Below, piece by piece: positions 1 to 57,418 of a stretch of DNA of 64,000 nt. This DNA comes from Eledone cirrhosa (Eukaryota), in assembly GCA_964016885.1 (NCBI GenBank), contig OZ024742.1:327794001-327858000 (forward strand), read 5' to 3'. Below the pieces are notes generated by a model. It was not told the origin of the DNA, searched no databases, and worked only from the letters and a program-made list of their open reading frames with translations. Made by a program: the position numbers and the translations under genes. Within the stretch, counting starts at the first letter, position 1, and the number at the start of each line of letters is the position of its first letter.

Positions 1-626
1 ACTATGAATTAGGGAGCTGCGCTTTTTGTCCGCAAATCCAAGTTCAGTCATACTTTGGTCCAAGCGGGTTTGTATATAACCCGTAGCTCCAATAATGATG
101 GGTATGAAGCTAAAGGTGTATCTTGGATACTGGATTTGTAAACTCCTCATCAATGGTCCGTAGATGTCCTCCTTCTCCTGTATTTTTCTGACAACGTTTA
201 CACAAGTGGGCAGCTGATCTCCACAACAGAACACGTTTCCAATGTGAGGTCCCAAACAACAATATCAGGCCGATTGTGCTTTAATTTGGTGGCAGTTTTT
301 ATTTTCAGGTTCCACCAGTATTTCTTAGTGCCATCTGTCTCAATATATTCTTCCTCGTTTGTTGTTAATTTTGTTTTCCGAAGTGCGTTCCAGATGGTTC
401 TAGCTATCCCTTCGTGTCTCATGGGGAGGTAGTAGCGAGATGACATTCTTTCGCAGCTGGCAACAATGTGGCTTACATCCTCGATCTTTGTTTTACATAG
501 CCTACATTTATTGTCAGCTGCTGCCCTCCTCTTTTGTGCAGCAGATATTTGGTAGGGAGTTCTTGTTCCTGTATTGCATAGAGATATCCCTCAAGGTGTG
601 ATGTCATAAACTTGTCGGAACTCCAT
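1..626 (-). mobile_element. R4/Dong-like RLE non-LTR retrotransposon, 5'-truncated fragment (3' end outside window)
   Basis: Near-identical to 12.5-13.1 kb copy; encodes RH and RPDIVVWD/EISCP restriction-like endonuclease motifs; frameshifted; abuts (TATG)n. Confidence 0.88.
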
Positions 627-790
627 GTATGTATGTATGTATGTATGTATGTATGTATGTATGTATGTATGTATGTATGTATGTATGTATGTATGTATGT
701 ATGTATGTATGTATGTATGTGAGTATGTATGTATGCTTTTATGTATGTATGCATGTATGTATGTAAGTATGTATGTATGTATGTATGTAT
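626..790. repeat. (TATG)n microsatellite between retroelements
   Basis: Direct reading; similar tracts at 9244-9387, 9818-9991, 12250-12360, 14803-14990, 15608-15673, 49583-49627, 50227-50284. Confidence 0.97.
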
Positions 791-3054
791 GAAGGATCAG
801 TGGTGGAGTGAGAAGGCTGGTGAGATACAAACTGCGTCTGATTCCAATAACACAAAGCTGTTGTACAATCTCTTGCGTGAGGTTTATGGACCGTCTTCTT
901 CTCTGGTGACACCGCTTCGCAGCAAGGATGGCAAAGAACTTCTTCGTGACTCACAAGGAATTCTACGAAGGTGGCGAGAGCACTTTGATGATCTTTTGAA
1001 TCAGCCGTCTTTCGTCAGTGAAGATTTCCTCAATCTCATTCCAGAAAGTCCTGTGAAAGTAGCTCTTGCAGAACCTCCGACGCTTGTGGAGGTTGCAGTG
1101 GCTATTTCGAAGCTGAACAGTGGAATATCTCCAGGTATGGATGGCATACACGGTGAGCTCCTACAATATGGTGGTGAGAGACTCCTGCAATATCTTCACT
1201 CTTTGTTTGGCAGGATATGGGCTAATGAATCCGTACCTGAGGACAGGAGAGATGCAGTAATGGTGGTCTTGTACAAGGGAAAGGGTAACAGGAACTATTG
1301 TGGGAACTACAGAGGTATATCATTACTTTCTGTCGTAGGGAAAGTTTTATGTAGCGTGCTTCTGGACTGTCTGCTGACACACATTGCAGATTGTGTTCTT
1401 CCTGAAAGTCAATCTGGTTTTCGTGCTGGACGCGGCACTACTGATATGATCTTCTCAGCTAGACAGCTCCAGGAGAAGTGCATGGAACAAGGCTTGGATC
1501 TGTATCAGGTTTTTGTCGATCTGACAAAAGCTTTCGATACTGTTAACAGAGATGCATTATGGAAGGTTCTCCAGAAGCTTGGTTGCCCTGATAAGTTCCT
1601 TGCTTTAGTTTGGTCTTTCCATGACGACATGAAGGTTTGGGTTAATGTCGAGGGTAAGATGTCGGAGCCTATCTCAGTAAAAAATGGAGTGAAACAGGGG
1701 GATATTCCAGCACCGACCCTGTTTGCCATATACTTTGCAATGGTTTTCTGTATTGCATTCAGGAATTGCGAGCATGGTGTTTACATCCGATATCGAACCT
1801 CAGGCAGCATATTTAACATCAGGCGCTTTGCTGCGAAGACAAAAGTATTTACATCAATCATAAGAGACCTCTTGTATGCAGATGATTGCGATCTTGTAGC
1901 GCACACAGAGAGTGATATGCAGCACATTTTGAATGCATTTTCTGACGTTTGCACTGCCCTACGTCTGACTGTCAGTCTCAAAAAAACCGTCGTCATGTAC
2001 CAACCTGCCCCTGGTAAGCAGTACACTGAACCAAACATCTATGTGTATAGCAAACGAGTTGGAGTGGTTGATCAGTTTGTCTACCTGGGGAGCACTGTCA
2101 ATCGATACGGCAACCTTGACAGTGAAATCTCACTTAGGATTAGGAAAGCAAGTGATGCTTTCGGAAAGCTAGAAAGGCGACTCTGGGGTCGGCGAGACAT
2201 ATGCAGGAGGACAAAGGTAAGGGTGTACAGGGCATGTGTGCTCTCTTGTCTTCTTTATGCCTGCGAGACCTGGGTCACATATCGACACCACTTTAAGCAA
2301 CTGGAGCGTTTCCATCAGATGTGTCTCAGACGGATCCATGGCGTTCACTGGAGGGACCACATCAGTGATGTCGAGATTTTGGAGAGCTCTATGTGTGACA
2401 GTATAGAAGCTCTTGTGCTTAAGCAACGACTCCGTTGGAGTGGTCACCTTGCCAGGATGAAGGATTCTAGAATACCAAAACAACTCTTTTATGGAGAGTT
2501 GGTTAAAGGAAAACGACCGCCACATAAACCAAAAAAGAGGTATAAGGATTCCTTGAAAGCCTCTCTGAAAGACGCTAACATCTCTGCTGATACATGGGAG
2601 AATATTGCTGCTGATCGTAATAAATGGAGAAAGACTGTATATGAGGGAAAAGTTGCTTTGAGGCATCTCGAATCGCATACGAGAAAGTAAAGCGGGATGT
2701 GAGGAAGGGCATTGCTGTTGCACTTCCAGACGGCGAGGGTCCTCCTATGGTGCTGACATGCAGCGTATGTGCGAGACTCTGCCTAAGCAAAGCTGGACTC
2801 GAAAGTCATCTTCGCAGTCATAAAGTAAGACCAGTGGTTGACTACCAGGCTGCTGTTGGAGATGCTACTCATCATGCTTGCCAAACATGTGGTAGGGAAT
2901 GTAAATCAGCAGGAGGGCTCAAGCGACATGCAAAAGTACACGAACTCCAACCACAGCCGACTATTCCCAGTGAATGTTTTGTTTGCCGACTCTGTGCAAG
3001 ACATTTTAGATAATTGGCTGGGTTAAAAAGCCACATTCGATCGCAGTGCTGTTA
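788..3054 (+). pseudogene. RTE reverse transcriptase with C-terminal C2H2 fingers (frameshift ~2657, stop ~3011)
   Basis: Motifs NYRGISLL, PESQSGFR, FVDLTKAFD, GVKQG, LLYADD, LRWSGH; 1-nt deletion relative to the 50.6 kb copy separates ORF 729-2690 from zinc-finger ORF 2699-3013; N-terminal YVCM run is microsatellite. Confidence 0.9.
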
Positions 3055-3394
3055 GTTGCTATCGTGTGTGTGTGTGTGTGTAGATATGCTTATGTGTGTG
3101 CGTGTGTGTGTATATATATATGTATATGCATATTATTATTGTTGTTGTCGTTATTATTATTGTTGTTATTATTATTATTATTATTGACGAAAGTGGATGT
3201 ACGTTTTTTGAAGCTCCGTGAGTAAGCAATTTTTGAGGATTAATTGTAGAGAATTGTTTATTTTTTGTACCGCTGAAGCATTATAAGACATTAATTTGTA
3301 TCCTGTGAAGGAATAACTCATAATATTTGGGCCTTTTGGCCCAAATATTTGAACTTTATTTTGAAAAAAATAATAATTTTTTTCTCAAAAAAAC

Positions 3395-5305
3395 ATGGCG
3401 GAGCCACGCCCCCTAGAGGCGGGTCTGCTGTCGTGCAACGGCGACTTGAGCGTTGAGAGGAGAGGTGAGGCGAGGAGCGCCACCAGCACGAATGTGAGCA
3501 GCGACAGTGCCAGCACCAACGGGCCGAGCGGCGCGGAAGGTGGTAACAGCGACAACACCAACACCAACAAGCCGAACAGCGCAGAAGGTGGTAATAGCGA
3601 GAGCACCAACAAAACGAACAGCACAGAGAGTAATAGTAGCGACAGCAGCAGCACCAACAAGGCCAACAGCACAGAAGCTAACCACGACACAGGGGAGAAC
3701 AACAACAGCAATAGCAGCAGCAACACCAACAAGAACAACAACAGTGACAACACCAACAAGAACACTTTCGCTGCTGTGGCAGCGGCTAAAAGGAGACCAT
3801 GCTACAGCATCGACTTAACCAACAGAGAGGAAAAGTTGGCCCAGGCCTGGAAAATCATAAATCAAGAGCAGACCTGGGCAAACTTAACTGTCCCGGCAGA
3901 AGCCATTGAGGCAGTGGAAAAAAGAACGGTGCATTTCAGATGCATCTCAGTAGAGACAAAGAGGGCAGCGATAATCGCCCAAGCTGACATAGAAGCCGCA
4001 CTGAAATACATCAGAGAGGACACAGACTTCATAGAGAGGGGCAGGCAATACGGCACCGTTTCGGTGCTGTTCAAGTCTGAAGCCCTCGCTGTGAAGCATT
4101 CAATGACCCCTTGCAAAACCAGCAAGGTCATAATGTACCCCTCCCACATGGGAAAACGAATAGCACGTGTGCGCATTCCCAGGATTCCACCAGGACTTGA
4201 TATGTGGTGGCTCCTGGGTTGCGTAATCGTGGAAGGAACGGATACAGTCCCGGTAGAGGCAACGAGAACTGCCAGGGACGACTGGTCCGGGGTTGATCTG
4301 GAGATACTGCTCCAAATCAGACCCGAAAACGTAAAAACAATCCCGGACCACATCCGCCTCCAAAACGGGAGGGTGTTGCATATAATGACTGAGGGCAAAA
4401 GGCCGCATTGTTTCCTTTGTGGGGAAACGACACACTTGCGAGCCTTCTGCCCTCAACTGCCGAAAAGCGCAAGGGGTCGAAAGATTCCACTGCTGGCGAC
4501 GCCGGGACAAGGACCACCAGCAACACCGTCAACAATGGAACCACCAAAATTGCACACCCAGGGGGGAAACGAGGAAAGCTCTCCCATTCCCCCTCCCCCC
4601 CAAAATACACACACGAACAAGAACATAAACACTCACTCAGACACAAACACGCTCACAGCCACAGACCCCTCATCCTCCAGCAGTGAAGATGAGGGAAAAC
4701 CAAAGTCCCCCAAAATACAAAAAACAAAACACAAAAAAAAAAGAAATCCACAAAGCACAAACACCCCCACAAAAAAAAATACACACACCACCCACACAAA
4801 CATTTTCCCCACAGCATCACCAACACAACCACCACAATCCCCCAAACGCAAACAAGCTAAACAGACACAAGAACAAATAGACACACAAACATCAGAAACT
4901 ACAGACACCCCACCCACAACAAACGCAGACACAATAGAAACAACACTAACAAAGCTATCACCACCACAATCACACGAACAAATAAAACCCGAGCAACAAA
5001 ACATTAAAAACTTCGTGCTTGCCAGAAGGGCCAACAAGGAATTGATGGCCCATGTAGCACGAAGCACAAACATCGAAAAAGACGGGGAAACATTTGAAGC
5101 GAGCACATTTCGCGTACCAGATAATTTGCTTCTGATGCGAATGTCGCTCGCTTCATACAAAGAAATTCGAAAGAGCTTTCCTCGGGATGTGGGAACCCCG
5201 AACGTAAAACCCACGTCAAGACTATTAAAGGGGTTCCCAAAAGAAACCCCACAAACCATGGAGGTCGAACCACCCGACCTTCACAAGACCCCGGAAGGTA
5301 AGTAA
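3395..5305 (+). CDS. Tx1-type ORF1 (636 aa), gag-like zinc knuckle
   Basis: Open frame; CFLCGETTHLRAFC = CX2CX4HX4C; N/S/T-rich N-terminus, P/T/K-rich C-terminus; 29 bp upstream of ORF2. Confidence 0.88.
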   Translation: MAEPRPLEAGLLSCNGDLSVERRGEARSATSTNVSSDSASTNGPSGAEGGNSDNTNTNKPNSAEGGNSESTNKTNSTESNSSDSSSTNKANSTEANHDTGENNNSNSSSNTNKNNNSDNTNKNTFAAVAAAKRRPCYSIDLTNREEKLAQAWKIINQEQTWANLTVPAEAIEAVEKRTVHFRCISVETKRAAIIAQADIEAALKYIREDTDFIERGRQYGTVSVLFKSEALAVKHSMTPCKTSKVIMYPSHMGKRIARVRIPRIPPGLDMWWLLGCVIVEGTDTVPVEATRTARDDWSGVDLEILLQIRPENVKTIPDHIRLQNGRVLHIMTEGKRPHCFLCGETTHLRAFCPQLPKSARGRKIPLLATPGQGPPATPSTMEPPKLHTQGGNEESSPIPPPPQNTHTNKNINTHSDTNTLTATDPSSSSSEDEGKPKSPKIQKTKHKKKRNPQSTNTPTKKNTHTTHTNIFPTASPTQPPQSPKRKQAKQTQEQIDTQTSETTDTPPTTNADTIETTLTKLSPPQSHEQIKPEQQNIKNFVLARRANKELMAHVARSTNIEKDGETFEASTFRVPDNLLLMRMSLASYKEIRKSFPRDVGTPNVKPTSRLLKGFPKETPQTMEVEPPDLHKTPEGK

Positions 5306-5334
5306 ACCTTTCCTCTCCCATTCATCCTGCCAGC

Positions 5335-8300
5335 ATGGCCATAAGAGTAGGAAGTTTAAATGTTCGTGGCCTGGGGTCGCCCTGGAAGCAAGGTCACTTG
5401 CTCAACGACCTCAGGTCACTAGGAATGGATGTAATTGCCATCAGCGAGACCAGAATTTCCGACACACGCGCACTGGCGCCGATTTTCGACGATTATCAGA
5501 TCTTTGCATCTGTTAGTCGGCCGGGAATGGGAGGTGGAGTGGCTGTGCTGTTTAGGAAATGTCTGGATCTCGAGGTAAGGTCAATCTTCCGGGATCCTGA
5601 CGGAAAGTTGGTGGTCCTGGACGTGAGCAATAGCGAAGGTGGTGCCTTTAGACTGGTGGCCGTCTACGCCCCTACTGGGGCCGGTCGGCCGGACTTCTTT
5701 AGGCGCCTGGAAAACTTTCTGCTTACGTCTCGCCCTTTACTGTTAATAGGGGATTGGAATGGCATCTTAGAAGCACGCTGGGATTGTGTGGGAGTATCTG
5801 ATAGAAGCGGGGGGTGCAAAAGCCTCAAGTACCTGATCAGCCAGTTTCAACTGTCTGACAGGTACCGACTAGATTTCCCTAATGCGCCAGTATGGACCTG
5901 GACCAATCGCATAGGGTCATCTAGATCGTACATAGATAGGATTTTCATTAGGAAAAGAGATAGAAATAGTGTAGGATGTCCACATTTTAAAACGGTTGCC
6001 TATTCAGATCACAAGCTTGTGATCTGTATGGTCGACCTAGATAAGACACGTAGGTTAGGACCTAGCTACTGGAAGCTAAACATGTCGTTTCCGGCACGTA
6101 AAGCTTACAGGGACCGGGTCAACAACTTAGTTAAGCAAAAGTTGACAGGGAGGGTTGTCAACAACAGGTGGTGGGGGGCACTCAAAAGAGAGATTAGAGC
6201 AACCTCGATAGGATTTAGCAAAGAAGTAGCAATAGAGAAAAATAGAAAGGAGGAGGGGCTGATAGCTAAGTTAGACGAGGCTATTTGTAGTGGCATTGCA
6301 ACAGACGTGCTAGCGGCGAGAATGGCACTAGACCATTTCTTCAATGCGAAACACGAAGGTTGCATTGTCAGAGCTAAGGCGCGTGCTCTGAGGAACGAGG
6401 GAACCAAAGCTGCCCGATGGGCTCGCTTTGCAGAGACGCAGCGTGGAAATAAAACCACAATTCGGTCTTTGACGGATCGAGATGGACACGAACTGAGCGA
6501 TTCCAAGCAGATGTGTGAGGCCTTTCGCCAGCACTTTGCTCGATTGTTCGGGAGGATGGGTGAGTCGGAGACGGCGGCGGACTTCAGTCCCTACCTCGAC
6601 GGCTTGCCACGCCTCTCGACGGCCGACGCTGAGCGCTGCGAAGAGCCGATAACATCAGCCGAAATTCAGGACGCCCTTGTCGGCTGCTCGAGTCGCAAGT
6701 CACCCGGTTTGGATGGTCTGCCCTACGAGCTTTACGTAAATATGCCAGACTTGTTCTCCGATCTCCTCGAAGCGCTCTACTGCAACTGGCAGCAGAACGG
6801 GAGCATTCCCAGTTCTGTGAGCCGTGGCGTAGTGACGCTGATAAGGAAAGACGAGAACAAGAGGGACACACTAGATAATTTCAGGCCCATAACCCTGCTC
6901 AACACAGAGTTTAAGATTTTGGCCAAGGTGTTAGCGAAAAGGTTGGCGCTTGTCGTCAAAGATTTGGTTGGGGAGGCGCAAACTTGCGCAATCCCGACCA
7001 GGTCCATACACGACAACCTCCACCTCATGCGATACATCATAGAGAGGGTTGGGTGCAAACCTGGCTTCGGTGGGGCTCTGATCAATTTAGATCAATCGAA
7101 AGCATTCGATAGGGTCGACCATCGGTACTTGGAGGCTGTCCTCGAGGCGGCTGGCTTCGGCCCCGTCTTCAGAAGCTGGATCGCTGCAATGTACAGCGGC
7201 ATCCGCTCGGTGGTCAAAGTTAATGGCCACCTCTCGGAACCGTTTCAGATCTCTCGATCGGTCCGTCAAGGGTGCCCTCTCTCCTCACTTCTGTACGTAT
7301 TGACTCTTGAGCCTCTACTGCGGAAGCTGGAGTTGTTGCAGGGCATCCCGCTCGAACCGGGACGTAGAAAGGCTGCGTCCGCTTATGCGGACGACATCAC
7401 CGTGATGGTGTCGGACACCTCGGAAATCGAGGTGATCCGCACCCATTTGGAGGAATATGAAAGGTTGACGGGAGCAAAACTTAACCCGGGAAAGTCGGTG
7501 GGCTTGCAGCTCGGCACCTGGAGAGGCAAGTCCATGCCGTCCAACAGCGTCGTTGGGCGCTGGACAGACGGACCGGTAAAGTTGCTCGGGGTTTGGTTCG
7601 GACCAGACCTCCAGGTGGATAAGAATTGGGACGAGGTGACGAGCAGGATAGCCAACCTCACCCAGAAATGGGCTGAGAGAAAGCTATCACTGAAAGGGCG
7701 GGCGGAGGTGGCGAACGCGTACATCGCGTCCGTCATCTACTACCGCCTGACCGTCGTGCCTTGCCCCCGTCCACGCCTCGCCAATTTGGAACGGCTCCTT
7801 TTCAAATTTTTGTGGAGGGGACGGGTCCCGTTGGTGAGGCGGTCCATCTGCTGCCAGCACCCTCTTCGTGGAGGGCTGGGCATGCCGTGGCTAATGATGC
7901 GCAGACATGCGCTGAGGCTGCGACATCTCCAGATATTTTGCCTAAACGGTGAACAGGTGTGGTCGCCGTTTGTTAGACGGGCCTTTCCGCAGCTCATCTC
8001 TTTGACTGAGCTGCAGTCCTGGGTCAAGAAGAGACCGAGACTGGGCGACTGGCATCTGGAATGTTGCCAGGCGCTCACTGCACTCTGCAAGGTGGGCAAT
8101 GCGGTCAGTGGAACTTCCACTCAAGATTTCTATAGAGGATTAGTGGAGGGCAAGTGCGATGACGTACTAGGAGAGGCTCTGGGCGTCAACGAAGTAGAAC
8201 TGACCAGTATGTTCCGGAGGACTTTCGAGCCGGGGACGATGGATAACTTCCAGAAATCCCTCGCTTGGCAGTGCTACCGGGGGGCGCTGCCGGTTCGGGA

Positions 8301-8754
8301 TAAACTCTACAGGCACGGAAGTGCTGTCAGACGAACCTGCCCGAGATGCGCGCAGAGCGACGAAACCGTTCTGCACGCACTCGTCCAGTGTCCGTGCATT
8401 GCTGACTTGTGGGGTTATGTCGAACAGCTATTGTCGCGTGTAGAACGGATCCGGCTATCGTCCGAGTCCATAGTGAAGATTGACCCGCCGCCTTCTTTTG
8501 GTCAGGAAGGGCAGGCAATTTTCCTCTGCCTGGTGGCAGTAGCGAAAGAGGTTGCATGGTGGACCAGGTTGAAAGGACTGAAGACAGACACTTTTCTCTT
8601 CGGCCAATCCCTCGTCAACTTCTTCAAGTTTCACTTGGAAAGGAAGGTGAGGGTGGAGAGAGAAGTGCTGCCCCCCAGTACATTTACTGAAAGGTGGGTG
8701 AATGTGGCGAGAATGGCCCGTGTGAGTGGGCCTACTCTGATCATGCGCCTGTAG
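5335..8754 (+). CDS. Tx1/L1 ORF2 (1139 aa): AP endonuclease + reverse transcriptase + CCHC finger
   Basis: SLNVRG, SET, VYAP, GDWN, SYIDR, SDH (APE); SPGLDG, FRPITLLN, DQSKAFD, VRQGCPLS, YADD (RT); CPRC..ETVLHALVQC. Confidence 0.95.
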   Translation: MAIRVGSLNVRGLGSPWKQGHLLNDLRSLGMDVIAISETRISDTRALAPIFDDYQIFASVSRPGMGGGVAVLFRKCLDLEVRSIFRDPDGKLVVLDVSNSEGGAFRLVAVYAPTGAGRPDFFRRLENFLLTSRPLLLIGDWNGILEARWDCVGVSDRSGGCKSLKYLISQFQLSDRYRLDFPNAPVWTWTNRIGSSRSYIDRIFIRKRDRNSVGCPHFKTVAYSDHKLVICMVDLDKTRRLGPSYWKLNMSFPARKAYRDRVNNLVKQKLTGRVVNNRWWGALKREIRATSIGFSKEVAIEKNRKEEGLIAKLDEAICSGIATDVLAARMALDHFFNAKHEGCIVRAKARALRNEGTKAARWARFAETQRGNKTTIRSLTDRDGHELSDSKQMCEAFRQHFARLFGRMGESETAADFSPYLDGLPRLSTADAERCEEPITSAEIQDALVGCSSRKSPGLDGLPYELYVNMPDLFSDLLEALYCNWQQNGSIPSSVSRGVVTLIRKDENKRDTLDNFRPITLLNTEFKILAKVLAKRLALVVKDLVGEAQTCAIPTRSIHDNLHLMRYIIERVGCKPGFGGALINLDQSKAFDRVDHRYLEAVLEAAGFGPVFRSWIAAMYSGIRSVVKVNGHLSEPFQISRSVRQGCPLSSLLYVLTLEPLLRKLELLQGIPLEPGRRKAASAYADDITVMVSDTSEIEVIRTHLEEYERLTGAKLNPGKSVGLQLGTWRGKSMPSNSVVGRWTDGPVKLLGVWFGPDLQVDKNWDEVTSRIANLTQKWAERKLSLKGRAEVANAYIASVIYYRLTVVPCPRPRLANLERLLFKFLWRGRVPLVRRSICCQHPLRGGLGMPWLMMRRHALRLRHLQIFCLNGEQVWSPFVRRAFPQLISLTELQSWVKKRPRLGDWHLECCQALTALCKVGNAVSGTSTQDFYRGLVEGKCDDVLGEALGVNEVELTSMFRRTFEPGTMDNFQKSLAWQCYRGALPVRDKLYRHGSAVRRTCPRCAQSDETVLHALVQCPCIADLWGYVEQLLSRVERIRLSSESIVKIDPPPSFGQEGQAIFLCLVAVAKEVAWWTRLKGLKTDTFLFGQSLVNFFKFHLERKVRVEREVLPPSTFTERWVNVARMARVSGPTLIMRL

Positions 8755-9387
8755 GCTGGTGAATTCGAGAAGGAGAGGGGTGCCCTTCCCGGGTGCCCTA
8801 GGAGCGTCGGGTGGCTCAGGACTGGTGGGGTGCTTGAGTCAACCCTGGGTGGTGATCCCTCTTATTGGGGAACTTTCATTGTTGTATTTTGATTGTTATT
8901 TTGTTTTTTGTTATTTATACTTACTCGATCTCTATGTAAACCCCCACTGTCCCTGTCTATTGTGTTGTCCCCTATATGTCGGCCCTTGTGGCCAATAAAT
9001 GAAATCATTATTATTATTATTATTGTTGTTATTAATGTATGTGTGTGTATATGTGTGTGTGAGTGTGTGTGTGTGGGTGTGTGTGTATGTGTGTGTGTAT
9101 GTATATATATATATATATATATTTCTTTTTATTTTATTTTATTATTTTTTATTTTTATTTATTTATTATTATTATTTTTTTTTTTTCTTTCTCCTCGTGC
9201 AATGGCCATACTCGATAACGAGGGGGCAGCCATCATCATGCAGGTATGTATGTATGTATGTATGTATGTATGTATGTATGTATGTATGTATGTATGTATG
9301 TATGTATGCTTGTATGTATGTATGCATGTATGTATGCATGGTATGTATGTATGTATGTATGTATGTATGTATGTATGTATGTATGTA

Positions 9388-9818
9388 TTCTAGGAGAAGG
9401 AAAACTCCGGGAGAGATGACCCCTTAGCCTTTGTCAAGGCAGAATTCTAGGAGAAGGAATACTCTGATATAACACCTGCAACTCTGATGGTATCCAATGA
9501 TGTTGACTTGTTCTTCTTTTTGGTAAATATCATCTTGGTTAAGAGAGTGGGACTGGCTTTGTGCAGTGCCTTTGCTCATTATAAAAGCTTCACGGCACAG
9601 GCATTGCTTTATATCTGGAGATCTCTCTGCACTTGTCATCACATGGTGCCATGGGCCCAGCACTATGTGTCAATAATTGTTACAGGTGTAGTGTTTGTAC
9701 CAGAGTTTTCATGTCGCAGGCTGGACTAAAAAGTCACACTCGTTCAGCGCATCGGTAGGGGTTCTCCTACTAGATGTAAAGTAGTGGCCGTACTCGAAAA
9801 CGAGTTGGCAGCCACCAT
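9388..9818 (+). mobile_element. Non-coding RTE-related element family A, 5'-truncated
   Basis: Matches 3' two-thirds of 14992-15604; ends TACTCGAAAACGAGTTGGCAGCCACCAT + (GTAT)n. Confidence 0.85.
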
Positions 9819-9831
9819 GTATGTATGTATG

Positions 9832-9862
<31 letters not shown>

Positions 9863-9991
9863 GTATGCATGTATGTATGCATGTATGTATGCATGTATGA
9901 ATGTATGTATGTATGTAAGTATGTGTGTATGTATGTATGTAAGTATGTATGTATATATGTAAGTATGTATGTATGCATATATGTATGTATG

Positions 9992-12248
9992 TTATCTCTT
10001 TCTCTTAATTTTGAGTATATTATTTTGACCGGCCCCCTTCCTGGTGGCAAGGTTGTAAAAGAAAATAAATTGTCATCCCTTGAATCGCAAGAATGTTTTG
10101 CAAATTTTGAAGCTGCCAGCTATCGCAGCCATCTGTAGAATATGAATTAGGGAGCTGCGCTCTTTGTCCGCAAATCCAAGTTCAGTCTTACTTTGGTCCA
10201 AACGGGTTGGTATATAATCCGTAGCTCCAATAATGATGGGTATGAAACAAAAGGTGTATCTTGGATACTGGATTTGTAAACTCCTCATCAATGGTCCATA
10301 GATGTCCTCCTCCTGTATTTTTCTGACAACGTTTACACAAGTGGGCAGCTGATCTCCACAACAGAACACGTTTCCAATGTGAGGTCCCAAACAACAATAT
10401 CAGGCCGGTTGTGCTTTAATTTGGTGGCAGTTTCTATTTTCAGGTTCCACCAGTATTCCTTAGTGCCATCTGTCTCAATATATTCTTCCTCGTTTGTTGT
10501 TAATTTTATTTTCCGAAGTGCGTTTCAGATGGTTCTAGCTATCTCTTCGTGTCTCATGGGGGGGGGGGGGGGGTAGTAGCAAGATGACATTCTTTCGCAG
10601 CTGGCAACAATGTGGCTTACATCTTCGATCTTTGTTTTACATAGTCTACATTTATTGTCAGCTGATGGCCCTCCCCTTTTGTGCAGCAGATATTTGGTAG
10701 GGAGTTCTTGTTCCTGTATTGCATAGAGATATCCCTCAAGGTGTGATGTCATAAACATGTCGGAACTCCATGCCAGGCTTTTTGAGTGGTTTATCCCCTC
10801 TATGGTCTGTGTTTTACGTCTCAAGTATCCATGAACAACTTTTTCTGTAAATTGGTCAATTTTTTCATCTTGTTTGAACATTGAATAGGATCTTCCGATT
10901 TCTCTGGAGGAGAGATTTATATCAGGCTTTATTCCATATCTGTCCTCCAGATCAGTGGCTATTCTAATGATATATTTTTTTTCATGCTCATAAACCTGGG
11001 CAAGATGGTTGCCAACCTTTTCCTCTGTTGAAGATGTTGCTTCAGTGTTACTATCCGGGTCTCATATGATGTTAATATGGATATTAGACTCCGGCCACCT
11101 TCCTTGCGTGAGAAGTATAGCCTATCCACATCACCATTGATGTTAAAGTTCCCAGTAACACTGAAAAGTTTTCGAGTTCTAACATCCATCTCACTTAGTT
11201 CTTGCATTGACCAGTTCAGCAGGCCAAAAGTTGGCGTTATAATTGGCACAGCATAAGTATTGTGGGCAATGTAGTTGTACGCTGACAGTTCTGATGACCA
11301 TATTTTCTTTACTCTTCTGAGGTATTCAGTTCTGGTTCTCTCATTATTTATAGGTCCATCATATCTGACATTCTCATCCTGTCCAAGATATCTGTAGTTG
11401 TCACCTGACTATAGAAGTTGTATTGTCAGGCCGTTTATCTCTAGATTTCTAGAGGAGGGCACAGTTCTTCCACGTTTTACTGCCTAATATGCACACTTGG
11501 ACTCACCAAATTTCATTTTTATGTCTGCTGAAAATTGTGTAATGAGGTCCAATTGTTTCTTGATGTCATTGATATTTGGCCCATACAACTTCAGGTCATC
11601 AACAAAGAAAAGATTGGAGATATATCTGGACCCACTTCTTTGTACACCTTGTTTCCTGAGTAGGTAAGATAGTGGATTAAGTGAGAGAAGGAAGAGTAGC
11701 ACTGACAAGCTATCACCCTGTAAGATGCCCTTCTGGTAATGTATCTTATCAGTCTTAACTTGCTCCTTCTCACCTCTAAGGATAAAATTGGTGTACCAGT
11801 TCTTGGTCAGACGTTCAACAGCAGCTACCAGTGGTTGTGGGACTTTGGCTAACTGTAAAGCCTTAACAATCCACCCATGAGGTACACTATCAAATGCTTT
11901 TTGATAGTCCAGCCACACCACAGTCATGTTTCTGCGATTCTTTGTTGTTTTTTCTTGAATCATTTTATTAGTTAGTGGGTGATCTATGCAACCCCACACC
12001 TCCCTCTTTCCACCAGCTTGCTCAGGTGTTATGATGTTGTTGGTAGCACAGTGATCCTGTAAGAACAGGTTAAGGCACCCAGTATATAATTTATACATGA
12101 TGTTTTGGCAGGCTATTGGGCGGTATTTTTAGCAAGGGTGGTTTGGCTATTTTGGGGAATGGGGAGAGTAGTGGCAGTTGATAACCATCTGGGCAGTTCT
12201 TGTGTGCCTTTAATGGTTTCTGTAAACAGTCGTATGAGATCTTGCCAA
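9992..12248 (-). mobile_element. R4/Dong-like RLE LINE, 5'-truncated, disrupted
   Basis: ORF pieces 11484-12098 (YQKAFDSV, QGDSLS, FVDD), 10959-11249, 10525-10881 (CRLC..H..C), 10073-10390; 3' end joins (CATA)n. Confidence 0.9.
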
Positions 12249-12360
12249 TATGTATGTATGTATGTAAGTATGTATGTATGTAAGTACGTATGTATGTAAG
12301 TATGTATGTATGTAAGTACGTATGTATGTAAGTACGTATGTATGTATATATGTATGTATG

Positions 12361-14803
12361 TTTTCTCTTTCTCTTAATTTCGAGTATATTTTTTTGACCG
12401 GCCACCTTCCTGGTGGCAAGGTTGTAAAAGAAAAGAAATTGTCATCCCTTGAATCGCAAGAATGTTTTGCATATTTTGAAGGTGCCAGCTATCGCAGCCA
12501 TTTGTAGACTATGAATTAGGGAGCTGCGCTTTTTGTCCGCAAATCCAAGTTCGGTCATACTTTGGTCCAAGCGGGTTGGTATATAACCCGTAGCACCAAT
12601 AATGATGGGTATGAAGCTAAAGGTGTATCTTGGATACTGGATTTGTAAGCTCCTCATCAATGGTCCGTAGATGTCCTCCTTCTCCTGTATTTTTCTGACA
12701 ACGTTTACATCAAGTGGGCAGCTGATCTCCACAACAGAACACGTTTTCAATGTGTGGTCCCAAACTACAATATCAGGCCGGTTGTGCTTTAATTTGGTGG
12801 CAGTTTTTATTTTCAGGTTCCACCAGTATTCCTTAGTGCCATCTGTCTCAATATATTCTTCCTCGTTTGTTGTTAATTTTGTTTTCCGAAGTGCGTTCCA
12901 GATAGTTCTAGCTATCCCATCGTGTCTCATGGGGAGGTAGTAGCGAGATGACATTCTTTCGCAGCTGGCAACAATGTGGCTTACATCCTCGATCTTTGTT
13001 TTACATAGCCTACATTTATTGTCAGCTGCTGGCCCTCCTCTTTTGTGCAGCAGATATTTGGTAGGGAGTTCTTGTTCCTGTATTGCATAGAGATATCCCT
13101 CAAGGTGTGATGTCATAAACTTGTCGGAACTCCATGCCAGGCTTTTTGAGTGGTTTATCCCCTCTATGGTCTGTGTTTTACGCCTCAAGTATCCATGCAC
13201 AACTTTCTCTGTAAATTGGTCAATTTTTTTTTCTTGTTTGAACATTGAATAGGATCTTCCGATTTCTCTGGGTGAGAGATTTATATCAGGCTTTATTCCA
13301 TATCTCTCCTCCAGATCAGTCGCTATTCTAATGATATTTCTTTTTTCATGCTCATAAACCTGGGCAAGATGGTCGCCAACCTTTTTCCTCTGTTGAAGGT
13401 GTTGCTTCAGTGTTACTATCCGGGTCTCATATGTTGTTAATATTGATTTTAGACCCCGGCCACCTTCCTTGCGTGAGAAGTATAGCCTATCCACATCACC
13501 ATTGATGTTAAAGTTCCCAGTAACACTGAGAAGTTTACGAGTTCTAACATCCATCTCACTTAGTTCTTGCAATGACCAGTTCAGTAGGCCAAATGTTGGC
13601 GTTATAATTGGCACAGCATAGGTATTGTGGGCAATGTATTTGTTGTATGCTGACAGTTCTGATGACCATATTTTTTTTACTCTTCTGAGGTATTCAGTTC
13701 TGGTTCTCTCCTTATTTATGGGTCCATCATATCTGACATTCTCATCCTGTCCAAGATATCTGTAGTTGTCACCTGACTGCAGAGGTTGTATTGTCAGGCC
13801 GTTCATATCTAGATTTCTAGAGGAGGGCACAGCTCTTCCACGTTTTACTGCCAAATATGCACACTTGGACTCACCAAATTTCATTTTGATGTCGGTTGAA
13901 AATTGTGTAATGAGGTCCAATTGTTTCTTGATGTCATTGATATTTGGCCCATACAACTTCAGGTCATCAACAAAGAAAAGATGGGAGATACTTCTGGGCC
14001 CACTTCTTTGTCCACCTTGTTTCCTGAGTAGGTAAGATAGTGGATTCAGTGAGAGAACGAAGAGTAGTACTGACAAGCTATCACCCTGAAAGATGCCCTT
14101 CTGGTAATGTATCCTATCAGTCTTAACCTGCTCCTTCTCACCTCTAAGGATCAAATTGGTGTACCAGTTCTTGGTCAGGCGTTCAACAGCAGCTACTAAT
14201 GGTTGTGGGACTTTAGCTAACTGTAAAGCCTTAATAATCCACCCATGAGGTACACTATCAAATGCTTTTTGATAGTCCAGCCACACGACAGTCATGTTTC
14301 TGCGATTCTTTGTTGTTTTTTCCTGAATCATTTTGTTAGTTAGTAGGTGATCTATGCAACCCCACACCTCCCTCTTTCCACCAGCTTGCTCAGGTGTTAT
14401 GATGTTGTTGGTAGCACAGTAATCCTGTAAGAACAGGTTAAGGCACCCAGTATATAATTTATACATGATGTTTTGGCAGGCAATTGGGCGGTAATTTTTA
14501 GCAAGGGTGGTTTGGCTATTTTTGGGAATGAGGAGAGTAGTGGCAGTTGATAACCATCTGGGCAGTTCTTGTGTGCCCTTAATGGTTTCTGTAAACAGCC
14601 GTATGAGATCTTGCCGATAGAAAGTGAAATTCTTCAACCAGTATCCTGTAATGAGGTCTGGGCCTGGCGATTTCCTATTCGACATTTTCTGTAGAGCTGT
14701 TTCCAGTATTGACCCATCTATGTCATATTGTTTTGTCTGGACATGTTGGCAGTAGTCCTGTTCCAGTTGTTTTAGCCAATTAGCTTGTCTGTTGAATCCG
14801 TCA
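12361..14803 (-). mobile_element. R4/Dong-like RLE LINE, 5'-truncated, ORF still open
   Basis: About 790 codons uninterrupted; ~80 bp 3'UTR with GCCACC-AGGAA-GGTGGC hairpin; both ends in (CATA)n. Confidence 0.92.
12442..14803 (-). CDS. RT + CCHC + restriction-like endonuclease (N-terminally truncated)
   Basis: KSPGPD, NYRPIAC, DYQKAFDSVPH, GIFQGDSLS, FVDDLKLY, GGRGL, CRLCKTKIEDVSHIVASC, RHD, RPDIVVWD, EISCP. Confidence 0.9.
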
Positions 14804-14869
14804 TGTATGTATGTATGTATGTATGTATGTATGTATGTATGTATGTATGTATATAAGTATGTATGTATG

Positions 14870-14901
<32 letters not shown>

Positions 14902-14991
14902 TGTATGTATGTATGTATGTATGTATGTATGTATGCATGCATGCATGTATCTATGTATGTATGTATGTAAGTATGTATGTAAGTATGTATG

Positions 14992-15604
14992 TCAGGTCAC
15001 CAGTTGGTGCTACTGGTAACATGTATCCCAGTACAACCTGTCTCATGGTCGGCTCGTTGGCGACTAAACTGGCAACCCCACCAAGGTTTCTTGGTGAGGA
15101 GGGTGACTTTGGACATCCTGCAGGACTAAAAACAAAACCTGTCAAATGGCAAAGGAGCTCTTAAAGTCAATGGTCATCCAAAATCACCGGGAGAGATGAC
15201 ACCTTAGCCTTTGTCAAGGCAGAATTCTAGGAGAAGGAATACTCTGATATAACACCTGCAACCCTGATGGTATCCAATGATGTTGACTTGTTCTTCCCTT
15301 TGGTAAATATCATCTTGGTTAAGAGAAGAAAGTGGGACTGGCTTTGTGCACTGCCTTTGCTCACTTTAAAAGCTTCACGGCACAGGCATTTCTTTATATC
15401 TGGAGATCTCTCTGCACATGTTGTCACATGGTACCATGGGTCCAACACTATGTGTCAATAATTGTCACAAGTGTAGTGTTTGTACCAGAGTTTTCATGTC
15501 GCAGGCTGGACTAAAAAGTCACACTCGTTCAGCGCATCGGTAGGGCTTCTCCTACATGGATATAAAGTAGTGGCCGTACTCGAAAACGAGTTGGCAGCCA
15601 TCAT
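14992..15604 (+). mobile_element. Family A non-autonomous element, full length (~610 bp)
   Basis: Same 5' start (CAGGTCACCAG) and 3' end as 15674 and 49628 copies; contains GGAGAAGGAA(A/T)ACTCTGAT, reminiscent of RTE 5'UTRs; TATG flanks. Confidence 0.88.
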
Positions 15605-15673
15605 ATAAGTATGTATGTATGTATGTATGTATGTATGTATGTATGTATGTATGTATGTATGTATGTATGTATA

Positions 15674-16279
15674 TCAGGTCACCAGTTGGTGCTACTGGTA
15701 ACATGTATCACAGTACAACCTGTCTCATGGTCGGGTCGTTGGCGACTAAACTGGCAACCCCACCAAGGTTTCATGGTGAGGAGAGTGACTTTGGACATCC
15801 TGCAGGACTAAAATCAAAACCTGTCAAAGGGCAAAGGAGCTCTTAAGAGTCAATGGCCATCCAAAATCACTAGGAGAGATGACACCTTAGCCTTTGTCAA
15901 GGCAGAATTCTAGAAGGAAAACTCTGATATAACACCTGCAACCCTGATGGTATCCAATGATGTTGACTTGTTGTTCTCTTTGGTAAATATCATCTTGGTT
16001 AAGAGAGTGGGACTGGCTTTGTGCAGTGCCTTTGCTCACTATAAAAGCTTCACGGCACAGTCATTGCTTTATATCTGGAGATCTCTCTGCACTTATCGTC
16101 ACATGGTACCATGGGCCCAGCACTATGTGTCAATAATTGTCACAAGTGTAGTGTTTGTACCAGAGTCTTCAAGTCGCTGGCTGGACTAAAAAGTCACACT
16201 CGTTCAGCGCATCGGTAGGGGTTCTCCTACATGGATATACAGTAGTGGCCGTACTCGAAAATGAGTTGGAAGCCACCAT
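15674..16279 (+). mobile_element. Family A non-autonomous element, full length
   Basis: Tandem diverged copy of 14992-15604 separated by (TATG)n. Confidence 0.88.
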
Positions 16280-16485
16280 GTATGTATGTATGCATGTATG
16301 TATGTATGAATTTGTATGAATCTTTGTACAAATGTATGTAAGAATGTATTCATGTATGCATGTATGTGCTTATGAATCTCTCTCTCTATATATATATTTG
16401 TGTGTACGTGTGTGTACCTGTGTGTATATCTGTGTGTGTATCTGTATATATCTGTATATATATATATATACTGTATGTGCTTATG

Positions 16486-17240: not shown

Positions 17241-17889
17241 TTGTAATAATATTGAACCTGTCAAAAATGGCGAGGTTTCTATTATAATATATCTAATTTA
17301 ATAATTTTTTTAGTACAACAATCTATTTAAAAATACTGGATATCTTGATTATCCAAGACAGACCTCAATATTTTCGCTCTGGTCATCACTGTATTTCATT
17401 TTACATTCGTTTAAATCAATTACAATTTTCTTCCATATATCCTTTAAATATTATCAAATTTATATAAATTAAATTACGATAATTTTGTTCTTCCTACCTA
17501 CCTACCTACCTACATACAGACATACATACATACCTATCTATCTTCCTAACAACCTACCTACCTATTTATCTATCTATATATCTACAAATATATATATATA
17601 TATATGTACATATATATATATAAATATATATATGTGTATGTTGTGTATGTGTGTGTGTGTCTGTGTGTGTATATATATAATAGTAGAACACTGGTGGCTT
17701 ATATCCGTAGAGTAGAGCCCTCAGTCCATGGGACGAGTTTAGTAGAAGTAGTTCCACAACAGTTATTCACCATTTCCGAGATCAATTGTTTGGCCTTAGG
17801 CGGATCATCAGCTCGATTTAAATGAGATTTTGCCGAAAAGGAAAAAAAACAAAACAAAACAATTGTACGAATACGTATGTGTTGTTCGA

Positions 17890-18257
17890 TGGACCCGAGT
17901 TGTAAAGGCGCACCGTGGCAACAAACCCTCAAAATGGTCTTTGACAGACCAAGACGGGCCTGCGGTGGTCGATTCCAAGTAGATGCGCGCGGCTTTTCGT
18001 CAGCGCTTTCCACAACTGTTCGGAGAAAGCGGGGTTTTGGAGACGGTGATGGACTTCAGTTCCTATCCCAATGGCCTGCCACGACTCTCAGCGAATGATG
18101 CGGGGTTTTCCGAAAAGCCAATAATCAGAAAGTCGATAATCAGAAAGACCTGGCCGACAGTATGTGGCCTAAATCGTCCGGTTTGGATGGTCTAACCTAT
18201 GAGTTTTACGTAGATATGCCAGAATTGTTCTCTGATCTCATCGAAGACGTCTACTGC
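17890..18257 (+). pseudogene. Degenerate Tx1 ORF2 fragment
   Basis: Aligns to 6440-6783 (RQRFPQLFG, DFSSYPNGLPRLS; GGTTTGGATGGTCT...ATATGCCAGA). Confidence 0.8.
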
Positions 18258-22502: not shown

Positions 22503-22579
22503 TTTGAAGAATAGGTAGGTTTGTGAGATGTTTCATGCGACTAAGCACCGGTTCAGTGTATTTATGGCCGATCTGGAGC

Positions 22580-51262: not shown

Positions 51263-51758
51263 GTATGCATGTAAGCATGTATGCATGTATGTATATATAT
51301 ATATGTATGTATACATATACGTACGTATATCACCAATAGTCTAAAAAAACGAAAGATGTAGATATTTAGCGAAGTATTTGTGACTTCAAAATCTAAATAT
51401 TTAAGAAATTCTAATGATGAAACAGAAATATACTTTTTGAAATCCTAGTAAGGAAAGAAGTAAGAAAAAATCCGAAAAACAGCAAAAAATAATGAACTTA
51501 TTATTGTGAAATATTCTGTTAAATAATATGAAAATACGAAAGGAAATATGAAAAGAATTTTGATACAAGAGAAAAAAATCGGAAATATTTCATTTTCCTT
51601 AATGATAATCCACATGAAGAATATATGTTTATGTTGTAGAGAGAAAGAAAAAAAAAATATATATATATAAGATCTGCTCATTCGGCAAAATAGACACATA
51701 TGCACACGCACACAAGAATCTATACATACAAACAAAGACACAGATACAGACACGCACA

Positions 51759-52827: not shown

Positions 52828-53464
52828 ATGTGTGTGTGTGTGTGTAAACAGATATCACTCATTACATACTTACACATGTAGGTTTGAAACATGGCAGTCA
52901 TATGGTTGTATATAGAAAAAAGAGTTGTTGAAAAAATAGTTTGTTACGGATATTTATTAAATAATTTTTATTGGAGCCTTTTGGCATTAATATTCTCGCG
53001 ATGCTTCTATTGTCGCCACAGCAGTAAACTATTCGGGGAAAAAATATGCCTCCCAAACCAAAAAGTTTGTAATTATCAACGTGATCATAATAATCACAAT
53101 GATAATAATAATAATTGTTTCTACTTTTGGCACAAGGCCAGCAAATACCCAGTGCATTACTGGTACTTTATTTTATCGACCCCGTAAGGATGAAAGGCAA
53201 AGTTAGATGTCTACTATAGGCGCAAGGTCAGCAATTTTGGGGAAGGAGAAAGTTGATCAAATCGACCCCAGTGAATGCCTGGTACTTTATTTTATCGACC
53301 CCAGTGTGTATGTATACACACTGGGGTCGATTTGATCAACTTTCTCCTTCCCCAAAATTGGAACAAGCTCAGGGCAAGTCCATTCACACGGGACATTCTT
53401 GGCTCTCTCTCACTTAACTTTCAACGAAATATCTGGAAGGTATCACCTATCTCTCCACACTGAC

Positions 53465-54822: not shown

Positions 54823-55923
54823 AGCAATTATCCCAGTACATTACTGGTACTTTATTTTATCGACCCCCGTAAGGATGAAAGGCAAAGTTAACATCGGCGG
54901 GATTTGAACTCAGAATGGCAAGGGCCGTAACTCTATGCGTCAAAGCATGGGGTCCGACCCTTTACCAATACTGCCAATTCACCGCCCTCTAATAATAATG
55001 ATAATGTTTCTACGTTTGGCACAAAGCTAGAAATTTGAAGGGAAGGAGAATGTCGACTAATTCTCCCAAGTACGTTAATGTTACGTCATTTTATCGAAAC
55101 CGTAAAGGGACGTAACTAAATGCCGCAAAACATTTTATCCGACGTTCTACCGATACTGCCAATCCACCAACGATAATTTTTAATTTAGTTATAAGGCCAG
55201 TAATTTTTCGGGTGGAGCATGTCGATTATATCGACTTCGATTTTTTTACAAGTAATTTATTTCATTGACCCCGGACTCAAGAAAGCAAAATTGACCTCTG
55301 CTGGATTTGAACTCAGATATAAAGAGCCACAATACATCACGTGGTATTTTGTGCGACTTTCTAACAATTCTCATAATTCGCCGCCATTCTATCAATTCGC
55401 CTAATGGTGATGATAAAGATGATGATGATAATGATGATGATAATTATGATGATGATGATGATGATGATGATTATGTTAATGATGATGATGATGATGATGA
55501 TGATGTTAATGATGATGATGATGAAGGTGATAAAATTGGTGTGTAATGGTGGTTTTCTTCATCGTTTCTCTCGTTATCATTCTCACAATTCTTTTTAAGC
55601 TGTTGTACCCGTCTGATCGGAGATTCTGTATGTATTCCCACAAACATGTATGCATGCACACATATTCACAAACACACTATATAGACAGCCGCACACTCAT
55701 GAGCATAAACCATCAAATACACACACATACATACATATTCGCACACATACACAGACAGAGACACACGCAGATATATATATATATGCTTACATTCATACGA
55801 TTTTAGGTTCATATGTTTGCGTTTAGCAATACATATTTATATACTCATAAGCCTAATATTTGTGACTCTGTATGTGTGTGTTTGTGTGTCACTGTGTTTT
55901 AGTGTGCATGTTAAAGTGTGTGT

Positions 55924-57326: not shown

Positions 57327-57418
57327 CAGAAGGGATATTCAATTTGTTGGTGATTCAACAAATATAAATGTTTATAACTGATTCAGAGCACTCGACAAAT
57401 TTTCTGGAGTATAATATT

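What the first reader, a model, noticed from the sequence alone, without database searches (positions are those of the whole stretch)
9198..9240. One 3' hairpin terminus shared by the RTE and two non-coding families
RTE: TGGCCATACTCG-ATAA-CGAG-GGGGCAGCCATCAT (9203, 51229). Family A: TGGCCGTACTCG-AAAA-CGAG-TTGGCAGCCACCAT (four copies). Family B: TACTCG-AAAT-CGAG-TTACAGCCATCAT (49554). The CTCG/CGAG stem is kept in nearly all copies while the loop varies, and each is followed by GTAT. This is the classic stringent LINE 3' recognition signal. It identifies A and B as non-tRNA, probably bipartite (5'UTR + 3' tail) parasites of this RTE or a sister lineage.
Basis: partly seen in the sequence, partly recalled or inferred. 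Interest (0 to 1): 0.72.

Follow-up and report, generated by a model that had tools for sequence, protein, structure and literature searches.

The report
RTE retrotransposon tail and its parasites
A jumping gene and two shortened, non-coding relatives end in the same small RNA hairpin, a well-known arrangement; the less ordinary part is that all seven copies have landed inside one kind of four-letter DNA repeat.

Summary
The shared terminus is real: 7 copies (2 RTE, 4 A, 1 B) and none elsewhere in the window. A and B are bipartite non-autonomous RTE derivatives, a known kind. A carries the published RTE 5'-UTR domain (21-nt exact match to RTE-6B/8_HRo) and the remnant of an RTE C-terminal zinc finger with its stop codon. 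B aligns with A along most of its length. Neither has a Pol III B box.

All 7 elements have GTAT on both sides, three show 11-13 bp duplications of variant units abutting the terminus (p about 0.02), and the elements end in (CAT)1-3. (2) The inner stem never covaries here, and in tested stringent LINEs the loop sets specificity, so 'classic signal' is unproven. (3) A's finger is only 65-76% identical to this RTE, so A came from a sister RTE. (4) The 9203 terminus is cut off from its RTE by a 5.8-kb L1/Tx1-like insertion.

The lead worth following is apparent homing of an RTE lineage to (GTAT)n.

The parts
9202..9239 (+). RTE-type 3' terminus: outer helix ATGGC/GCCAT, inner hairpin CTCG-ATAA-CGAG (9211-9222), (CAT)3 end
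791..3185 (+). RTE1 body: 5'-truncated RT ORF with C-terminal C2H2 fingers (1-nt frameshift near 2656, premature stop at 3011), proximal microsatellite 3' UTR
3186..9007 (+). L1/Tx1-like two-ORF element inserted in the (ATT)n of the RTE1 3' UTR; it separates the body from the terminus
   Evidence: clade label inferred from domains
9008..9201 (+). Distal RTE 3' UTR (microsatellites, T run)
   Evidence: (9123-9303 vs 51148-51328, 82.6%)
9389..9818 (+). Family A copy A1, 5'-truncated, with a short duplicated piece at its 5' junction
14993..15604 (+). Family A copy A2, full length; putative 13-bp TSD at 14980-14992 / 15606-15618
15675..16279 (+). Family A copy A3, full length; G-U pair in the inner stem
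49629..50226 (+). Family A copy A4, full length; putative 12-bp TSD at 49617-49628 / 50225-50236
49818..49885 (+). [quoted passage not shown]
50094..50165 (+). Remnant of an RTE C-terminal C2H2 finger with its stop codon in A4; also at 9687-9758, 15472-15543 and 16147-16218
49188..49582 (+). Family B, single copy: head shared with A (42/52), RTE 5' domain, partial finger remnant (49488-49535), terminus 49546-49582
50288..51262 (+). RTE2: 5'-truncated RTE with three C2H2 fingers, 3' UTR and terminus (51228-51262); putative 11-bp TSD at 50277-50287 / 51261-51271
627..16345 (+). Nest 1: a (GTAT)n array split into segments (627-790, 9244-9388, 9819-9990, 12248-12359, 14805-14992, 15605-15674, 16280-16345) by 4 RTE-family and 3 RLE-type insertions
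49180..51330 (+). Nest 2: a degenerate GTAT array holding B, A4 and RTE2

Best explanation
The hairpin is the ordinary 3' end of an RTE-clade non-LTR retrotransposon. A and B are internally deleted RTE derivatives: each keeps an RTE 5' UTR (probably with its Pol II promoter; inferred) fused to the last codons, stop, short 3' UTR and terminus of a parent RTE. That parent is related to, but not the same as, the RTE in this window (anatomy shown; parent inferred). Their RNA is bound through the terminal stem-loop by an RTE EN-RT protein supplied in trans and is copied by target-primed reverse transcription (inferred from known LINE biology). All members insert in phase into (GTAT)n arrays, with the terminal C-AT replacing one unit's AT and duplications of about 10-14 bp. 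The GTAT after each copy is therefore mostly pre-existing target (shown for this window, modestly). Homing comes either from endonuclease preference or from read-through GUAU RNA pairing with the nicked strand (undecided).
For: 5' UTR: a 21-nt stretch of A4 (49854-49874) is identical to RTE-8_HRo and RTE-6B_HRo positions inside 196-268, and 23 nt are identical to OegopSINE, in the supplement of PMC5786205 (compared by eye). The domain sits about 200 nt from A's 5' end, as in those LINEs. The 21-mer gives 4 window hits at up to 3 mismatches against 0.00 expected. A also has a GACTAAAC..TGGCAACCC stretch like the BovB 5' UTR (by eye). 3' coding remnant: an HMM from the last C2H2 finger of 110 of 120 homologues scores A1/A2/A3 at 31.7-32.8 bits and A4 at 13.4, against a null maximum of 6.8 in 500 resamples. 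A-B homology: head, middle, finger and tail each beat 1000 of 1000 shuffles, and the 5' domain 999 of 1000. No B box in A2, A3, A4 or B, while a control SINE in the window has one. No tRNA gene and no convincing Rfam hit in A2 or B. TCG-N4-CGA hairpins end several published RTEs (RTE-1_OAf, BovB, RTE-1_PSi), with AGTCG/CGACT there against ACTCG/CGAGT here, a compensatory swap if homologous. Target: GTAT lies within 12 nt upstream of 7 of 7 5' junctions and within 8 nt of 6 of 7, against 3.7% background outside the nests, and at three different truncation points. 7 of 7 3' junctions are in phase. Variant-unit TSDs appear in 3 of 7 true pairs against 2 of 42 cross pairs (Fisher p=0.017; backgrounds 4.4%, 4.0%, 8.5%). 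A similar array at 56206-56400 has no terminus.
Against: No full-length RTE is in the window, so the parent 5' UTR could not be aligned directly. A's and B's 5' parts match nothing in the RTE fragments. B's finger remnant is not significant alone (1.3 bits vs null 7.4; 65 of 500 shuffles reach its DNA score vs RTE2), and one B segment (49451-49488) does not align to A above chance (58 of 1000). The search for a parent carrying A's C-terminus found nothing. The terminus has one compensatory pair only, reached by 138 of 500 shuffles. TSDs are uninformative for A1 and B (pure repeat) and absent for RTE1 and A3. There are only two nests in one window, and the pattern was noticed after the fact. 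Published RTE insertions are described as not sequence-specific (PMC2887409).
Confidence: 0.72

Rival explanations
1. One reading: A and B are parasites of this very RTE family, and GTAT is a shared tail made during reverse transcription. Later copies land in earlier tails.
For: The terminus is more conserved between RTE and A (27-30/35) than the adjacent finger (65-76%), as expected if one RT reads both. Copy divergence is similar (A 95-97%, RTE 97%). Target and phase are the same. RTEs are known to generate microsatellites (PMC2887409).
Against: In A2, A4 and RTE2 the duplicated flank abuts the terminus with 0-1 nt between, leaving no room for a tail. Three different loops occur (AUAA, AAAA, AAAU), and loops specify the partner in L2 elements. 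A's 3' UTR and finger differ from this RTE's.
Confidence: 0.3
2. A and B each arose independently from different autonomous RTEs and have their own partners, so the shared hairpin is plain common descent.
For: In aligned A/B blocks, 12 of 23 single-change codons are synonymous (p=0.005-0.02 before correcting for frame choice; finger block 4 of 5), suggesting divergence while still coding. The loops differ.
Against: A and B are collinear, with a similar junction between the 5' part and the finger. The signal is weak, B is one decayed copy, and its blocks lie in different frames.
Confidence: 0.35
3. The pile-up in GTAT is not targeting but an artefact: repeat-mediated mis-joins in the assembly, or tandem duplication by unequal crossing-over between GTAT runs.
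For: Every junction lies in a simple repeat, and A2 and A3 are in tandem. No reads are available.
Against: Tandem A2/A3 (576/605) are no closer than the distant A1/A4 (398/409). Truncation points differ among copies. Variant-unit TSDs are not expected from mis-joins. No unique flank is duplicated between the nests.
Confidence: 0.1
4. A and B are tRNA-headed SINEs (Ceph-SINE type) with an unrecognisably decayed head.
For: They share the RTE 5' domain with Ceph-SINEs, and the first 30 nt have a loose D-arm-like look (by eye).
Against: No B box, no tRNA match by ARAGORN or Rfam, and the CORE/Ceph motif CCTTGGG is absent on inspection.
Confidence: 0.07

Closest known systems
Bipartite non-autonomous RTE elements: RTESINE1/2, MAR4/WALLSI3, RTE1-N1_LA, RTE-N2_Lch, Bov-A (PMC5786205; PMC3747384 Table 1)
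   Same: RTE 5'-UTR part plus RTE 3' end, no EN/RT ORF, no small-RNA head, tail shared with an RTE LINE.
   Different: The 3' part includes a whole (A) or partial (B) terminal C2H2 coding remnant. A and B are about 600 and 395 nt, in an invertebrate host. All copies here sit in (GTAT)n. The parent LINE is not identified.
Ceph-SINEs (OegopSINE, SepiaSINE, Sepioth-SINE; PMC5786205)
   Same: They carry the same conserved RTE 5'-UTR domain (23 nt identical to OegopSINE).
   Different: Ceph-SINEs have a tRNA head and a CORE piece, and their 3' ends are listed as of unknown origin. A and B have neither head, but do have a recognisable RTE 3' end. They resemble the intermediate that paper proposes as the source of such SINE bodies.
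RTE-2_OV and the O. bimaculoides RTE (PMC9115989)
   Same: Single-ORF RTE with a C2H2 finger and a microsatellite-filled 3' UTR.
   Different: Not the same family: of 4 published primers tried, 1 matches with 3 mismatches and 3 have no match at up to 5 mismatches (their positions may lie outside the truncated copies). The passages seen mention no non-autonomous partners or target preference.
Stringent 3' stem-loops of ZfL2-1/ZfL2-2 and UnaL2 (PMC4176376); RTE/Au-SINE hairpin (PMC6007223)
   Same: A terminal stem-loop shared between LINE and dependent element, followed by short repeats.
   Different: There the loop is the specific part (L2) or compensatory changes support the stem (Au). Here the stem sequence is invariant, the loop varies and no function has been tested.
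Microsatellite-targeted non-LTR elements (Dong, Togen, some HERO; the Tx1 and R1 clades among APE elements; PMC4640811, PMC2887409)
   Same: In-phase insertion into a simple repeat, with nested pile-ups.
   Different: RTE is not among the target-specific groups listed. For RTE only a weak signature and 1-2 nt microhomology with the tail repeat are described (PMC6007223).

Membership tests
Bipartite non-autonomous RTE (RTESINE / RTE-N type) | 5' part derived from an RTE 5' UTR | tested here: met
   A: exact 21-nt match and about 65-nt similarity to RTE-6B/8_HRo and others (by-eye comparison with the supplement text). B: via alignment to A, 45/69, with 1 of 1000 shuffles as good.
Bipartite non-autonomous RTE (RTESINE / RTE-N type) | 3' part derived from an RTE 3' end | tested here: met
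   Terminus 25-30/35 identical to RTE; finger remnant significant in A, not in B alone.
Bipartite non-autonomous RTE (RTESINE / RTE-N type) | No endonuclease/RT coding region | tested here: met
   Six-frame translations; no match of the 5' parts to the RTE body.
Bipartite non-autonomous RTE (RTESINE / RTE-N type) | No small-RNA (Pol III) head | tested here: met
   the control SINE shows a B box.
Bipartite non-autonomous RTE (RTESINE / RTE-N type) | Moves as a unit (several copies with the same ends, TSDs) | tested here: inconclusive
   Met for A (3 copies share the 5' end, 4 the 3' end, 2 putative TSDs). B is a single copy.
Bipartite non-autonomous RTE (RTESINE / RTE-N type) | Collinear with both ends of an identified autonomous parent | not testable with these tools
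   Both RTE copies are 5'-truncated, there is no host genome, and the parent search was empty.
tRNA-derived SINE / Ceph-SINE | tRNA head with A and B boxes | tested here: not met
   (one A-box-like match at +100 in A2 and A4, no B box).
tRNA-derived SINE / Ceph-SINE | CORE-derived piece (CCTTGGG) upstream of the RTE domain | tested here: not met
   Absent on inspection; motif from PMC5786205.
RTE clade (autonomous element) | Single ORF with APE endonuclease and RT | tested here: inconclusive
   RT present, APE region lost by truncation. 81 of the 120 listed homologues carry an APE domain in the same ORF (my count).
RTE clade (autonomous element) | RT phylogeny places it in RTE | not testable with these tools
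   No labelled RTE references were available; PDB relatives are only L1 and R2. The label rests on architecture and recall.
RTE clade (autonomous element) | 3' end in short simple repeats after a TCG-N4-CGA type hairpin | tested here: met
   (CAT)1-3 ends; similar hairpins in published RTE tails. Not every RTE tail shown there has one.
Stringent 3' recognition signal (ZfL2/UnaL2 type) | Loop sequence conserved among partners, stem exchangeable | tested here: not met
   Loop varies at 2 of 4 positions, inner stem invariant; PMC4176376.
Stringent 3' recognition signal (ZfL2/UnaL2 type) | Stem supported by compensatory changes | tested here: inconclusive
   1 of 10 pairs; 138 of 500 shuffles reach it. 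Folding favours the hairpin (pair probabilities 0.84-1.0 except the A3 G-U).
Stringent 3' recognition signal (ZfL2/UnaL2 type) | Required for retrotransposition and bound by the cognate RT | not testable with these tools
   Needs an assay.
Microsatellite-targeted non-LTR retrotransposon | Most copies inserted in phase in one repeat, both flanks target-derived | tested here: met
   7 of 7 in this window; 3 informative TSDs.
Microsatellite-targeted non-LTR retrotransposon | Holds genome-wide and is due to endonuclease specificity | not testable with these tools
   One window only; the endonuclease domain is absent.
HDV-like 5' ribozyme reported for some RTEs | Double-pseudoknot fold at the 5' end | tested here: inconclusive
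   My relaxed descriptor gave best scores reached by 13, 19, 6 and 32 of 40 resamples for A2, A3, A4 and B; no positive control was run. No ribozyme hit in Rfam.

The most novel reading that the evidence does not exclude
This is an RTE lineage that has evolved real sequence-specific homing to (GTAT)n microsatellites genome-wide, which would add RTE to R1 and Tx1 as APE-type clades with target-specific members. Its autonomous element and head-less bipartite derivatives share that target with an RLE-type element and build nested retrotransposon piles. A and B would also be living examples of the head-less RTE intermediate proposed as the source of the Ceph-SINE body.
Probability: 0.4. Interest if true: 0.6.

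Novelty: new variant of a known kind. Interest (0 to 1): 0.42.

Why it matters
LINE-parasite tail sharing and bipartite RTE derivatives are textbook, so the finding as written is a good annotation, not a surprise. Two things could matter. RTE proteins are used as gene writers with dispersed, random integration (PMC13708176), so a natural RTE that homes to one simple repeat would show how APE elements gain specificity and offer a compact donor design (5' domain plus a 35-nt terminus). Second, the three loop variants give a ready natural test of whether RTE tail recognition follows the loop-specific rule known from L2 elements.

Tried and rejected
Rfam on the whole window gave only microsatellite-driven miRNA-type noise among the 150 of 187 hits listed; on A2 and B nothing better than E=0.15. 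ARAGORN found 0 genes. The HDV descriptor gave nothing above null. One candidate in A2 starts at the element's 5' end with a G-U first pair and a CTAA junction, but has a non-canonical L3 and is absent from B, so I rejected it. An 80-aa hydrophobic ORF open in 3 of 4 A copies has no real homologue: one low-complexity hit among 1.84 billion proteins and no Atlas hit. I treat it as incidental. The search for longer proteins with A3's 57-aa finger frame found no candidate, which is weak evidence. Searches of octopus-paper supplements for the terminus found nothing, but they hold little sequence text: PMC9115989 files 5 and 7 gave about 94 characters each, files 6 and 8 were not searched, and two files were too large; PMC13282606 held one 5,371-character file. 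The paper on RTE ribozymes (id recalled) is not held. The genome-contig scan was not used because it holds prokaryotes only. Repbase and Dfam could not be consulted, so A, B and a GTAT preference may already be catalogued there. Literature searches that found no description of these elements or of target-specific RTEs: (0 papers); only open-licence papers are covered.

Full report
Setting. The window is eukaryotic, microsatellite-rich DNA full of non-LTR retrotransposons. The host is probably an octopod. This is inferred: among the 120 listed relatives of the RLE-type element, the one with the highest identity is named from Argonauta hians (65% over 61% of the query), and the LINE mix resembles the RTE, Dong-R4, CR1 and L1-Tx1 families listed as recently active in Octopus vulgaris (PMC13282606, passages).

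Observation. The quoted termini are all present. The core pattern gives 13 hits against 1.13 expected, of which 7 are the termini and 4 their reverse-strand readings. A covariance model of the 7 finds no eighth copy. The two RTE termini are identical (35/35), A is 27-30/35 and B 25/35 identical to them. The terminus at 9203 does not follow an RTE directly. A two-ORF element with APE, RT and zf-RVT domains sits at 3186-9007 inside an (ATT)n run of the 3' UTR of the RTE at 791-3185. The distal piece matches RTE2's end (82.6%) but holds extra microsatellite, so its link to that body is likely, not proven.

Structure. The consensus fold has an outer 5-bp helix and an inner 5-bp hairpin, and single-sequence folding agrees. 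Only 1 of 10 pairs shows a change on both sides, and 138 of 500 shuffles reach that. The CTCG/CGAG stem is invariant apart from one G-U, and unpaired flanks are about as conserved. Within the window the conservation is therefore of sequence and does not prove a structure. Outside support is by eye: RTE tails printed in the supplement of PMC5786205 end in AGTCG-N4-CGACT (RTE-1_OAf, BovB) or TCG-N4-CGA (RTE-1_PSi), against ACTCG-N4-CGAGT here. The hairpin is thus probably the usual RTE tail. In the best-tested stringent LINEs the stem can be swapped and the loop sets specificity (PMC4176376, abstract and one results section). 'Stem kept, loop varies' is the reverse of that pattern and would, if the rule carries over, point to different partner RTs.

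What A and B are. They align end to end. In local alignments with 1000 shuffles each, the head (42/52), middle (83/127), finger (30/42) and tail (24/28) were never matched by a shuffle, the 5' domain (45/69) once, and one short segment 58 times. A's 3' part is a C2H2 finger with its stop codon. A profile from the last finger of 110 of 120 RTE homologues scores it at 13-33 bits against a null maximum of 6.8; B retains only the second half and scores 1.3. No B box, tRNA or Rfam family was found, while a tRNA-type SINE in the same window shows a B box. No HDV-like fold rose above null. A and B are thus head-less bipartite RTE derivatives like RTESINE1/2, MAR4 and RTE-N elements (PMC5786205; PMC3747384, passages).

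Whose parasites? A's finger is 41/63 and 31/41 identical to RTE2's, whereas A copies are 95-97% and the RTE copies 702/723 identical. So A came from a sister RTE. Which protein moves it now is open. The higher conservation of the terminus, the similar ages and the same target allow this RTE; the loop differences argue for others. A weak excess of synonymous changes between A and B (12 of 23 single-change codons) hints that they split while still coding, that is, arose separately.

GTAT is probably the target. All 7 elements are also preceded by GTAT on the same strand: within 12 nt in 7 of 7 and within 8 nt in 6 of 7, against 3.7% of positions outside the nests. This includes three copies truncated at different internal points. 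GTAT-like arrays cover 2% of the window. All 3' junctions are in phase with the tetramer, which a tail would also give. The discriminating evidence is duplicated variant units: A2 (13 bp), A4 (12 bp) and RTE2 (11 bp) have the end of the 5' flank repeated within 0-1 nt of the terminal CAT. Random array positions do as well in 4.4%, 4.0% and 8.5% of cases, and cross pairs in 2 of 42 (p about 0.017). A1 and B are uninformative; RTE1 and A3 show no exact duplication. The elements' own ends are (CAT)1-3. A similar array at 56206-56400 has no terminus. Three RLE-type elements use the same arrays in the opposite orientation. Tandem duplication is unlikely because neighbours are no more alike than distant copies; mis-assembly cannot be excluded without reads.

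Mechanism. Shown: anatomy, homology, in-phase location in GTAT. Inferred: Pol II transcription from the retained 5' UTR, binding of the terminal stem-loop by an RTE protein in trans, nicking of the ATAC strand, priming through an AT microhomology, and a second nick about 10-14 bp away. Homing could come from the endonuclease or from read-through GUAU RNA pairing with the primer strand; the latter would extend the model of PMC6007223 (passages), in which RTE tail repeats bias the site by 1-2 nt of microhomology.

Prior art and novelty. RTE insertions were described as not sequence-specific (PMC2887409, abstract and discussion). Target-specific APE elements are said to be mainly R1 and Tx1 (PMC4640811, passages), and RTE-1_MD is listed as random (PMC13708176, passages). 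PMC13295347 was seen as abstract only. Octopus RTE-2_OV has the same architecture but is another family (PMC9115989, passages; primers). My searches found no description of A, B or a GTAT-homing RTE, but Repbase, Dfam, subscription papers and most octopus supplements were out of reach.

Verdict. The finding is real and largely a new member of a known arrangement. The apparent microsatellite homing makes it a new variant. Interest 0.42; best explanation 0.72; strict genome-wide targeting 0.4, worth 0.6 if true.

Noticed in passing
window 1-626, 9991-12247, 12360-14804 (- strand): Three 5'-truncated copies (94-98% alike) of an RT + restriction-like-endonuclease element, Dong/R4-like by recall, inserted in the same GTAT arrays but in the opposite orientation. 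The longest has a 787-aa open frame.
   Followed up: partly
window 3186-9007: Apparently intact two-ORF L1/Tx1-like element (642-aa and 1150-aa frames) inserted in (ATT)n; a possible microsatellite-targeted Tx1. Diverged relatives lie at 17885-18257 and 53369-54424.
   Followed up: partly
window 49894-50136 (also 9487-9729, 15947-16189): 80-aa hydrophobic ORF open in 3 of 4 A copies, overlapping a 35-aa ATG-started frame that holds the whole zinc finger. No homologue was found.
   Followed up: yes
window 41064-41635 (-) and 41651-42030 (+): A second, unrelated RTE-like fragment whose RT part and C-terminal part face opposite ways (5'-inversion-like), ending in (TA)n, with no hairpin of this type.
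   Followed up: partly
window 26977-27159, 32448-32594, 39593-39774, 54820-54988, 59790-59996 and others: Abundant tRNA-type SINE with a B box and a central domain like the mollusc Meta/MESC type (name recalled); used as the control.
   Followed up: partly
window 47053-47952 and 57410-57783: Near-perfect long inverted repeats (900 bp at 99%; 375 bp at 99%); the first lies beside a Penelope-like ORF at 45665-46993 (label recalled).
   Followed up: no
window 48506-48693 / 48861-49048: 188-bp terminal-inverted-repeat pair (96%), MITE-like, just upstream of family B.
   Followed up: no
window 22519-24177: 552-aa RT frame of a CR1/L2-like element (label recalled from its translation).
   Followed up: no
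window 14995-15130: The 5' head of A forms several hairpins, and its first 7 nt can pair with 15109-15115 with a G-U first pair; not above null as an HDV-like ribozyme.
   Followed up: partly
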